Below are positions 26,725 to 26,746 of a stretch of DNA of 64,000 bases, in pieces (position 1 is the first letter of the stretch; each line of letters starts with the position of its first letter). The notes under the pieces were generated by a model, which worked only from the letters and a program-made list of their open reading frames with translations, made no database searches and was not told the DNA's origin. The translations under genes were made by a program, and so were the position numbers. This stretch comes from Escherichia phage vB_EcoM_Lh1B: the sequence record OK428535.1; one strand, written 5' to 3'.

Positions 26725-26746
26725 CAGATATATATTACCTAGGTGA
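26725..26746 (+). promoter_or_regulatory. phage promoter-like motif CAGATATATATTACCTAGGTGA
   Basis: Identical 22-mer at 35843-35864; sits after terminator, about 45-50 nt upstream of ATG. Confidence 0.45.

What the first reader, a model, noticed from the sequence alone, without database searches (positions are those of the whole stretch)
26725..26746. Recurring promoter-like motif placed immediately after terminators
An identical 22-mer CAGATATATATTACCTAGGTGA occurs at 26725 and 35843. Related AGATATTATCT(T)AGGGAGA variants occur at 42674, 42868 and 63177. Every copy sits just downstream of an intrinsic terminator and 35-100 nt upstream of a gene with a strong SD. The TATATTAC core resembles, from memory, AT-rich early promoter consensus sequences described for phiKZ-like jumbo phages; this cannot be verified here. 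It is unlike sigma70 -35/-10 architecture.
Basis: partly seen in the sequence, partly recalled or inferred. Interest (0 to 1): 0.55.

Follow-up and report, generated by a model that had tools for sequence, protein, structure and literature searches.

The report
Early promoters of a jumbo phage
The repeated AT-rich motif is the start signal (early promoter) that a phiKZ-like giant phage uses for the RNA polymerase it carries in its own particle; this promoter class is already described in related phages, so the finding is correct but largely ordinary.

Summary
The window is a Seoulvirus (SPN3US/EC001-like, phiKZ-related jumbo phage). It contains exactly five strong copies of one motif, all on the + strand and all intergenic: tttCAGA-TAKATRTTAY-CTnnGT-GAG, with 10-mers at 26729, 35847, 42674, 42872 and 63178. 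In the SPN3US genome the same matrix finds 21 sites, all on the + strand. Twenty lie in the 6.4% of the genome that is non-coding, 42-151 nt upstream of co-oriented genes, including non-virion RNA polymerase genes.

The core is the same as printed or mapped early promoters of relatives: phiKZ TATATTAC, OBP/N1M2 TTTCARRYAKATATTATYWAAGTG, and AR9 AAATATATATTAT-(6N)-G(+1). It does not have sigma-70 architecture.

By analogy with mapped relatives, transcription should start at the conserved G 7 nt after the 10-mer: 26745, 35863, 42690, 42888 and 63194. No transcript 5' ends are available to test this.

Two claims were overstated. Only 3 of 5 copies directly follow a canonical terminator, and only 3 of 5 precede a strong Shine-Dalgarno sequence.

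One addition may be new. In the TATATATTAC subclass the predicted transcript begins with a hairpin whose stem sequence differs between copies, which suggests a 5'-terminal stem-loop. Its function is inferred only.

The parts
26713..26748 (+). Promoter P1, class 1. A/T-rich upstream region, CAGA, 10-mer TATATATTAC at 26729-26738, spacer CTAGGT, predicted start G at 26745.
   Evidence: PWM score 45.6. Part of the exact 25-nt repeat at 26722-26746. The start position is inferred from the AR9, phiKZ and phiR1-37 rule that the TSS lies 6 nt after the conserved element.
35831..35866 (+). Promoter P2, class 1. 10-mer TATATATTAC at 35847-35856, predicted start G at 35863.
   Evidence: PWM score 43.6. 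Part of the exact 25-nt repeat at 35840-35864.
42658..42693 (+). Promoter P3, class 2. 10-mer TAGATATTAT at 42674-42683, predicted start G at 42690. The upstream part is N-masked in the window.
   Evidence: PWM score 36.8. The unmasked sequence in EC001 and SPN3US reads AAAAATTTATAGATAGATATTATCTTAGGGAG.
42856..42891 (+). Promoter P4, class 2. 10-mer TAGATATTAT at 42872-42881, predicted start G at 42888. TAGATATTATCTA (42872-42884) is a 13-nt palindrome.
   Evidence: PWM score 42.4; sequence.
63162..63197 (+). Promoter P5, class 2 variant. 10-mer TAGATGTTAT at 63178-63187, predicted start G at 63194. This is the weakest match.
   Evidence: PWM score 31.1. The same G variant recurs at SPN3US 100818 and 109896.
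26745..26764 (+). Predicted 5'-terminal RNA hairpin of the P1 transcript (GAGAUUGC-AUUG-GUAAUCUU).
   Evidence: strand folding: -6.7 kcal/mol, z -2.44, paired from nt +1.
35863..35880 (+). Predicted 5'-terminal RNA hairpin of the P2 transcript (GAUAGA-AGACAA-UCUAUC).
   Evidence: strand folding: -5.9 kcal/mol, z -2.57. Orthologous leaders in relatives carry a different hairpin.
42888..42921 (+). Predicted 5'-terminal structure of the P4 transcript. It is weaker and occupies the whole 35-nt leader.
   Evidence: strand folding: -6.6 kcal/mol, z -2.44.
63194..63216 (+). Predicted 5'-terminal RNA hairpin of the P5 transcript (GAGACGUG-...-UACGUUUC).
   Evidence: strand folding: -8.0 kcal/mol, z -2.87.
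26663..26705 (+). Intrinsic terminator upstream of P1: 11-bp stem with a UUCG loop, then a T-run. It ends the internal-head-protein gene unit.
   Evidence: Terminator scan; fold -22.8 kcal/mol.
35680..35716 (+). Intrinsic terminator about 140 nt upstream of P2.
   Evidence: Terminator scan; fold -17.5 kcal/mol.
42621..42660 (+). Intrinsic terminator after the major capsid gene and directly before P3. It is N-masked in the window.
   Evidence: Found in the SPN3US orthologous stretch: AGCTTACTCCCTTCGGGGAGTAAGCT followed by TTTTCTTTTT. The EC001 sequence agrees.
63130..63174 (+). Intrinsic terminator directly before P5: a stem with an internal loop, then TATTTTTTTT.
   Evidence: Fold -22.7 kcal/mol. 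The strict scan missed it because of the internal loop.
26795..27550 (+). First gene of the P1 unit, function unknown (phrog_18643). An alternative ATG lies at 26789. The unit continues to the dihydrofolate reductase gene.
35916..36059 (+). First gene of the P2 unit: a 47-aa hydrophobic protein of unknown function (phrog_8574).
42726..42809 (+). Unannotated 27-aa ORF with an AAGGAG Shine-Dalgarno sequence. It is the only ORF between P3 and P4.
   Evidence: Its length is conserved in EC001 and SPN3US. It is not annotated in either record.
42923..43927 (+). First gene of the P4 unit, function unknown (phrog_7286).
63292..64000 (+). First gene of the P5 unit, function unknown (phrog_6820). It runs off the window.
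643..2748 (+). RNA polymerase subunit gene, the homologue of SPN3US gp35, which is not among the five virion RNAP subunits. Context showing the phage has its own polymerases.
   Evidence: phrog_3015 'RNA polymerase beta subunit', E 1e-240. The list of virion RNAP subunits comes from PMC5694885.
9792..11090 (+). Virion RNA polymerase subunit gene, the homologue of SPN3US gp42 (beta' middle part). This enzyme is the one proposed to read the motif.
   Evidence: phrog_2962, E 6e-173. gp42 is a virion RNAP subunit in PMC5694885.

Best explanation
The five sites are early promoters of a phiKZ-like (Chimalliviridae, genus Seoulvirus) jumbo phage.

Proposed mechanism: the multisubunit RNA polymerase packaged in the virion (vRNAP) enters the cell with the DNA. 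It recognises an extended AT-rich element spanning about -32 to +4, consisting of:
- an A/T tract;
- CAGA at -20 to -17;
- TAKATRTTAY at -16 to -7;
- a 6-nt spacer starting with CT;
- G+1 A+2.

It then starts transcription at the conserved G, with no host sigma factor. Each site heads a + strand unit of mostly small genes of unknown function. Upstream terminators, where present, insulate these units from the preceding (often late, structural) genes.

What is shown here: the motif, its exclusivity to intergenic DNA, its orientation, its conservation in relatives, and its sequence identity with published early promoters.

What is inferred: the start point, the early timing, and the identity of the polymerase.

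In the TATATATTAC subclass the transcript is predicted to begin with a stem-loop. I infer that this protects the 5' end from 5'-end-dependent decay. That last step is speculation.
For: 1. Exclusivity. An unbiased 8-mer count in SPN3US shows the motif words are confined to non-coding DNA: ATATATTA 9 non-coding versus 0 coding, GATATATA 7 versus 0. A PWM scan of both strands of SPN3US (480,762 positions) gives 21 hits scoring 25 or more, all on the + strand and 20 of them intergenic. Four of the 21 were not in the training set. In the window there are exactly five strong hits, all intergenic and on the + strand.

2. Placement. Sites lie 42-151 nt upstream of co-oriented genes. One site is 42 nt upstream of SPN3US genes 29014-33356, which are RNAP subunits absent from the virion enzyme list. 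This is expected if vRNAP transcribes the second polymerase. No first downstream gene is annotated as a virion protein.

3. Identity with known early promoters. phiKZ TATATTAC, 201phi2-1 TTTRARR_BTATATTACDWHDGTG and OBP/N1M2 TTTCARRYAKATATTATYWAAGTG are printed in PMC7058600 Table 2. AR9 AAATATATATTAT-(6N)-G+1 was mapped by dRNA-seq and primer extension, and phiKZ and phiR1-37 have their TSS 6 nt after the element (PMC5312081). In phiKZ itself, all 7 TATATTAC copies in the first 50 kb are intergenic, including one upstream of PHIKZ054, which has a reported early promoter. G is present 7 nt after the 10-mer in all aligned sites.

4. Conservation. The exact 22-mer is found at 38 places in 11 related IMG/VR contigs, in front of 20 unrelated protein families.

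5. Not sigma-70. The scan does not call the sites, and sigma-70-like sites are not enriched (16 found versus 19.4 expected).

6. vRNAP is essential in SPN3US (PMC5694885).
Against: - No transcript 5' ends, timing data or rifampicin data exist for this phage or for SPN3US in the searchable literature. Start point, early timing and polymerase identity all rest on analogy.
- vRNAP had not been purified from any relative as of PMC5312081, so direct recognition has not been shown even in the model phages.
- AR9 has one consensus-like site that is silent, so single copies may be inactive. P5 in particular has a variant 10-mer.
- The PWM was trained on intergenic sites. Its enrichment figure is therefore partly circular. 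The 8-mer and regex counts are not.
- The 5' hairpin is significant only after correcting for base composition. Raw folding energies do not differ from controls.
Confidence: 0.85

Rival explanations
1. The sites are host sigma-70 early promoters, as in T4. The TATATT/TATTAT part would act as a -10 box read by the Salmonella or E. coli RNA polymerase.
For: TATATT matches TATAAT at 5 of 6 positions. An A/T-rich tract upstream could act like an UP element (read).
Against: - There is no conserved -35 hexamer at 16-18 nt, and the sigma-70 scan does not call any of the five sites through that hexamer.
- Conservation extends well beyond a -10 hexamer, covering CAGA upstream and CT..GTGAG downstream.
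- The same extended motif is the early promoter in phages that are independent of host RNA polymerase.
- The virion RNAP is essential in SPN3US.
Confidence: 0.04
2. The sites are promoters for the second, non-virion phage RNA polymerase. They would then be middle or late promoters, not early ones.
For: Both polymerases are encoded by the phage, and timing was not measured here.
Against: - The known non-virion RNAP promoters look different: phiKZ late is TATG at the start site, phiKZ middle is a weak AT-rich/TACT element near -22, and AR9 late is AACA-(6N)-TA/G.
- The motif here matches the early class.
- It is absent in front of virion-protein genes and present in front of non-virion RNAP genes.
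Confidence: 0.05
3. The motif is not primarily a promoter. It could be a protein-binding operator or a recombination site belonging to a mobile regulatory cassette, and its position before genes would reflect cassette insertion.
For: - The class-2 core TAGATA-T-TATCTA is palindromic in two copies.
- The same promoter-plus-leader module precedes unrelated genes in different phages.
- Similarity between this window and 33 relatives breaks inside the P5 leader, at 63273.
Against: - The palindrome is not conserved across copies; its outer positions vary.
- The strict single orientation relative to genes, the fixed distance to a conserved G, and the identity with mapped promoters in AR9 and phiKZ are not expected of a recombination site.
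- The cassette behaviour is compatible with, and secondary to, promoter function.
Confidence: 0.04

Closest known systems
phiKZ early promoters (28-32 sites; Ceyssens 2014, Wicke 2020), read by the virion RNA polymerase
   Same: Same 8-mer core, TATATTAC. Same A/T-rich upstream region, intergenic position, orientation, and G 7 nt after the core. Same type of phage with two split multisubunit polymerases.
   Different: The Seoulvirus element is longer and stricter around the core (CAGA before it, CT..GTGAG after it). It also has a second common variant, TAGATATTAT. It has not been mapped experimentally here.
Predicted early promoters of Pseudomonas phage OBP and Klebsiella phage N1M2 (TTTCARRYAKATATTATYWAAGTGWA; 31 sites in N1M2)
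   Same: Nearly position-for-position the same consensus, including the G/T alternative (K) that separates my class 1 and class 2, and the GTG at the presumed start.
   Different: Those are different phage genera. The last base of the 10-mer is mostly T there, whereas class 1 here has C as in phiKZ. Those promoters are also predictions only.
Bacillus phage AR9 early promoters, AAATATATATTAT-(6N)-G+1 (41 mapped sites)
   Same: 11 of 13 positions identical to AGATATATATTAC and to AGATAGATATTAT. Same 6-nt spacer to a G start.
   Different: AR9 has uracil-containing DNA, a Gram-positive host, and is not a nucleus-forming phage.
PeSL (promoter-early stem-loop) cassettes of T4-type phages (Arbiol, Comeau and Krisch 2010; cited from memory, not checked here)
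   Same: A stem-loop or terminator followed directly by an early promoter, repeated many times, flanking small variable genes. There are signs of gene replacement at the cassette.
   Different: T4 cassettes carry sigma-70 promoters read by the host enzyme. Here the promoter is phage-polymerase specific. Only 3 of 5 copies have the adjacent terminator, and only one recombination boundary was seen.
5'-terminal stabilising stem-loops of enterobacterial mRNAs (the ompA type; Emory, Bouvet and Belasco 1992; from memory)
   Same: A hairpin starting within 1-3 nt of the predicted 5' end.
   Different: The 5' end is only predicted and stability was not measured. The hairpins are AT-rich and weak (-6 to -8 kcal/mol).

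Membership tests
phiKZ-like virion-RNAP early promoter | The phage encodes a split multisubunit virion RNAP and a second, non-virion RNAP. | tested here: met
   Window ORFs 643-2748 and 9792-11090 hit PHROG RNA polymerase beta-subunit families at E 1e-240 and 6e-173. They are colinear with SPN3US gp35 and gp42. gp42 is a proven virion RNAP subunit (PMC5694885).
phiKZ-like virion-RNAP early promoter | An extended, highly conserved AT-rich element of about 10-13 nt matching the published consensus. | tested here: met
   AGATAKATRTTAY compares with phiKZ TATATTAC, OBP/N1M2 RRYAKATATTAT and AR9 AAATATATATTAT at 11 of 13 positions.
phiKZ-like virion-RNAP early promoter | The element is centred near -10, with the transcription start 6 nt downstream of it (G+1). 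| not testable with these tools
   A G is present 7 nt after the 10-mer in all aligned sites, which fits. No transcript ends are available.
phiKZ-like virion-RNAP early promoter | Over-represented, intergenic, and co-oriented with downstream operons of early-type genes, not virion genes. | tested here: met
   20 of 21 SPN3US sites are intergenic, all are on the + strand, and they lie 42-151 nt from the next start. First genes are of unknown function or non-virion RNAP, and none is annotated as virion. All 5 window sites behave the same way.
phiKZ-like virion-RNAP early promoter | Transcripts appear immediately after infection, without new protein synthesis and independently of host RNAP. | not testable with these tools
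   No transcriptome or rifampicin data for SPN3US-like phages were found.
Bacterial sigma-70 promoter | -35 and -10 hexamers 16-18 nt apart. | tested here: not met
   None of the five sites is called through its conserved core. Sigma-70-like sites are not enriched in the region (16 found versus 19.4 expected, and 0 versus 2.2).
N4-type virion RNAP promoter (DNA hairpin promoter) | A conserved short hairpin (5-7 bp stem, 3-nt loop) upstream of the start, read by a single-subunit polymerase. | tested here: not met
   The hairpins lie downstream of the conserved element, their loops are 3-12 nt, and many copies lack them. The polymerase here is multisubunit.
T4-type PeSL mobile regulatory cassette | A stem-loop plus early promoter module repeated at the borders of variable genes and mediating their shuffling. 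| tested here: inconclusive
   The module precedes 20 unrelated gene families, and one similarity break lies inside a leader. However, other breakpoints versus SPN3US are not at promoters, and 2 of 5 copies lack the adjacent terminator.
5'-terminal stabilising stem-loop | A stem beginning within a few nt of the mRNA 5' end. | tested here: inconclusive
   62% of 37 class-1 leaders have an uninterrupted stem of 6 bp or more starting at nt 1-3. The figure is 19% in composition-matched shuffles and 8% in random genome 40-mers, and there are 16 distinct stems. The 5' end itself is only predicted, and raw energies do not differ from controls.

The most novel reading that the evidence does not exclude
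The class-1 copies (TATATATTAC-CTAGGT-GAG...) may be more than promoters. They could be a stereotyped early-expression cassette made of:
- the promoter;
- a near-obligatory 5'-terminal hairpin whose stem sequence varies between copies;
- a leader box (T/C)GAC(T/C)AT just before the Shine-Dalgarno sequence;
- a leader of about 50 nt.

Under this reading the hairpin would mark or protect the very first phage mRNAs. It might act against host 5'-end-dependent RNases, or serve as a handle for a phage factor or for exit from the early infection vesicle. The cassette would be exchanged between loci and phages, and would act as a border for swapping small early genes.
Probability: 0.25. Interest if true: 0.5.

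Novelty: new member of a known kind. Interest (0 to 1): 0.3.

Why it matters
The sites give a ready map of the first transcription units of SPN3US/EC001-type phages. SPN3US is the genetic model for giant phages, yet no promoter or transcript-start map for it turned up in the papers I could search. The map predicts five start points in this window and about 21 in the SPN3US genome.

It also flags the small genes of unknown function behind each site as candidate host-takeover genes, and it supplies test templates for the still poorly characterised virion RNA polymerase. The motif's near-identity from Bacillus phage AR9 through Pseudomonas phages to enterobacterial phages shows how conserved promoter recognition by this enzyme is.

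None of this changes current understanding. It extends a known promoter class to one more genus.

Tried and rejected
1. Literature access. Ceyssens 2014 and Lavysh 2016, the primary sources for the logos, are not held. The supplements of the phiKZ TSS papers are not held either. I used the phiKZ genome itself and consensus strings printed in PMC7058600 and PMC5312081 instead.

2. SPN3US-specific literature. I found no paper with an SPN3US transcriptome or a printed SPN3US-type promoter.

3. Shared promoter placement with phiKZ. I tried to show that the SPN3US gene behind sites 15617/15710 is the nuclear-shell protein, as for PHIKZ054. BLASTP against phiKZ gp54 was not significant (E 0.67), there was no PDB sequence match and no Pfam hit. 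I dropped the claim.

4. IMG/VR scan. A scan with a phiKZ-style pattern, ATTTAANNNNTATATTAC, returned unrelated AT-rich viral contigs and was useless.

5. Hairpin test by raw folding energy. Class-1 leaders are not more stable than controls (Mann-Whitney p 0.5-0.7). Only the composition-corrected z-scores (p 7e-8) and the terminal-stem length differ. phiKZ shows such stems in only 2 of 7 sites.

6. N4-like hairpin promoter reading. Rejected; see the membership test.

7. Hairpin plus CUUUU as an attenuator. Considered, but the U-runs are 4 nt or shorter and not universal. Not pursued.

Full report
**1. What the window is**

Two 4-kb pieces of the window match Salmonella phage SPN3US and about 40 relatives (Salmonella, Escherichia, Proteus and Erwinia jumbo phages) at 96-98% identity. 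A local BLAST shows the whole window is colinear with SPN3US 30609-92638 at 96-97%. The last 900 nt are 100% identical to Escherichia phage vB_EcoM_EC001, while 26400-44000 differs from EC001 by 1.7%. The source is therefore a Seoulvirus, a phiKZ-related nucleus-forming jumbo phage.

The window carries RNA polymerase subunit genes. ORF 643-2748 hits phrog_3015 and ORF 9792-11090 hits phrog_2962. The second is the homologue of SPN3US gp42, a proven subunit of the five-part virion RNA polymerase formed by gps 241, 218, 240, 42 and 244 (PMC5694885). The window also contains 280 N characters, which mask part of one site.

**2. The observation**

The 22-mer is present exactly twice, at 26725 and 35843, with none expected by chance. 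The exact identity is 25 nt. The three variants are present as described: TAGATATTAT at 42674 and 42872, and TAGATGTTAT at 63178.

I built a weight matrix from 17 sites in the SPN3US genome and scanned both strands of the window. It returns exactly these five sites, with scores of 31-46. Nothing scores between 15 and 31, and the few weak hits are the reverse strand of the same loci.

**3. Is it more than chance, and is it excluded from genes?**

I assembled the annotated SPN3US genome, of which 6.4% is non-coding.

- An unbiased count of 8-mers enriched in non-coding DNA returns four kinds of word: terminator T-runs, CCTTCGGG tetraloop stems, the Shine-Dalgarno word TTAAGGAG, and the motif words. 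ATATATTA occurs 9 times in non-coding DNA and 0 in coding DNA. GATATATA occurs 7 and 0 times, and ATATTATC 9 and 2 times.
- A loose 10-mer regex gives 26 hits. Nineteen are intergenic, all on the + strand.
- The matrix scan of both strands gives 21 hits scoring 25 or more. All are on the + strand and 20 are intergenic. Four were not in the training set.
- Distances to the next co-oriented start codon are 42-151 nt. The one apparent exception (249 nt) is explained by an unannotated 27-aa ORF.

**4. Anatomy**

The aligned sites give the consensus A/T tract - ttCAGA - TAKATRTTAY - CT..GT - GAg. There are two common forms:

- class 1: CAGATATATATTAC-yTAGGT-GAG, six copies in SPN3US and two in the window;
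- class 2: GAGATAGATATTAT-CTnnnn-G.

The G that lies 7 nt after the 10-mer is present in every aligned site.

Terminators precede three of the five window copies directly. The 35843 copy sits 140 nt after its terminator, with a repeat array in between. The 42872 copy follows a hairpin that has no T-run.

The sigma-70 scan does not call the sites, and such sites are not enriched.

**5. Comparison with known promoters**

The review PMC7598289 states that in each RNAP-encoding jumbo phage a conserved AT-rich motif centred near -10 lies upstream of early operons, and that it was confirmed as the early promoter wherever transcripts were mapped.

PMC5312081 gives the mapped AR9 consensus AAATATATATTAT-(6N)-G+1. 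It also says that phiKZ and phiR1-37 have their start site 6 nt after the element. The window's AGATATATATTAC-(6N)-G and AGATAGATATTAT-(6N)-G match AR9 at 11 of 13 positions with identical spacing.

PMC7058600 Table 2 prints these strings:

- phiKZ: TATATTAC
- 201phi2-1: TTTRARR_BTATATTACDWHDGTG
- OBP: TTTYARRYAKATATTATYWWADTG
- N1M2: TTTCARRYAKATATTATYWAAGTGWA

The last two are almost the same string as the motif here, and they include the G/T alternative that separates my two classes.

I also checked phiKZ directly. In its first 50 kb, TATATTAC occurs 7 times. Every copy is intergenic, on the + strand and 42-80 nt upstream of a gene, with an A/T-rich ATTTAA region before it and a G 7 nt after it. 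One copy lies before PHIKZ054, for which an early promoter is reported.

**6. Function**

I conclude that these are early promoters read by the injected virion RNA polymerase. The predicted starts are at 26745, 35863, 42690, 42888 and 63194, giving leaders of 50 (or 44), 53, 36, 35 and 98 nt.

Supporting context:

- In SPN3US one copy lies 42 nt before the genes at 29014-33356. These encode RNAP subunits that are not in the virion enzyme, so they belong to the second polymerase, which early transcription must produce.
- The genes for virion RNAP subunits have no copy nearby.
- The first gene after each copy is of unknown function, which is typical of early genes. In AR9, 76% of early genes have no predicted function.
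- No copy faces the minus-strand blocks of structural genes.

What is not shown: the 5' ends, the timing and the enzyme. No such data for this phage group were found.

**7. An additional feature: a hairpin at the predicted 5' end**

An IMG/VR scan for the class-1 22-mer found 38 copies in 11 related contigs, with 36 different downstream contexts. The sequence from the predicted +1 usually forms a hairpin whose 5' arm starts at nt 1-3, and the stems differ between copies. Examples are GAGATTGC/GTAATCTT, GATAGA/TCTATC, GAGAGTTAA/TTAACTCTT, GAGCATTGA/TCAATGCTT and GAGCGTTA/TAACGCTT.

- 62% of 37 distinct class-1 leaders have an uninterrupted terminal stem of 6 bp or more. The figure is 19% in shuffles that keep the first 8 nt and the base composition, and 8% in random genomic 40-mers. 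There are 16 distinct stems.
- Composition-corrected z-scores average -1.8, against -0.3 for random 40-mers (p 7e-8). Raw energies do not differ from controls.
- In the window, four of the five predicted 5' ends fold from nt +1, with z from -2.4 to -2.9. The P3 leader does not.
- The 37 copies precede 20 unrelated protein families, with leaders mostly 46-64 nt long. Orthologous genes carry different hairpins.
- Class-2 sites mostly lack the hairpin, and phiKZ shows it in 2 of 7 sites.

I read this as selection for a 5'-terminal stem-loop on a subset of early mRNAs. Protection of the 5' end is the simplest function, but it is untested.

**8. Verdict**

The element belongs to a promoter class already described, by prediction or by mapping, for phiKZ, 201phi2-1, OBP, N1M2, EL, AR9 and phiR1-37. 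The Seoulvirus instance is a new member of that class, not a new kind of element. Interest is modest. The hairpin and cassette architecture is the only part that may be new.

Noticed in passing
window 35716-35822: An array of seven copies of a 9-mer lies between a terminator and promoter P2. Five are direct: CCCTCTAAA at 35718 and 35768, CCTTCTAAA at 35738, CCTCTCTAA at 35748 and GCTCTCAAA at 35786. Two are inverted: TTTGAGAGC at 35800 and TATAGAGGG at 35811. Related GCGTTTTAGAGGGT words occur upstream of class-1 promoters in relatives and at SPN3US 137572 and 240065. This may be a protein-binding array.
   Followed up: partly
window 26770-26776 and 35889-35895; SPN3US 4479, 23833, 94282, 166646, 167594, 223320: A second short element, aaTCGACTAT (in relatives TGACyATCAAGGA), lies just 5' of the Shine-Dalgarno sequence. 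It is mostly 21-39 nt before the start codon. It occurs both in leaders that have the promoter and in front of internal genes of the same operons. Its function is unexplained. It could be a leader or translation signal, or a second promoter.
   Followed up: partly
window 63273 (inside the P5 leader): Similarity to SPN3US and 33 other relatives stops 80 nt after the predicted start and 19 nt before the ATG. Only EC001 and Proteus phage 7 share the downstream gene (phrog_6820). This is a gene replacement whose border lies in the promoter-leader module.
   Followed up: partly
window 2738-5539, insert at about 3232-4414: The DNA helicase gene is 933 aa here, against 568 aa in SPN3US. The extra 1.18 kb encodes Hint and LAGLIDADG homing-endonuclease domains, so it is an intein.
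   Followed up: partly
window 42726-42809: An unannotated 27-aa ORF with a strong AAGGAG Shine-Dalgarno sequence is the only ORF served by promoter P3. It sits between the major capsid gene and P4. Its length is conserved in EC001 and SPN3US, but most differences between the three are amino-acid changes.
   Followed up: partly
window 42872-42884; SPN3US 184047: In two copies the class-2 core reads TAGATA-T-TATCTA, a perfect 13-nt palindrome. On the reverse strand it gives a weak PWM hit. The palindrome is not conserved in the other copies.
   Followed up: no
window 38038-38044 and 60679-61128: There are two further differences from SPN3US. About 250 nt of SPN3US (67607-67858, one of two small tandem genes) is absent from the window, and about 450 nt is extra in the window near the acetyltransferase genes.
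   Followed up: no
SPN3US 25229 (outside the window): This is the only good motif copy inside a coding region (PWM 29.5). It lies 277 nt before the next gene. It may be an internal promoter or a silent look-alike.
   Followed up: no
whole window: 280 N characters are scattered through the window, dense at 42634-42673, where they hide a terminator and the upstream half of P3. The unmasked sequence was recovered from EC001 and SPN3US.
   Followed up: yes
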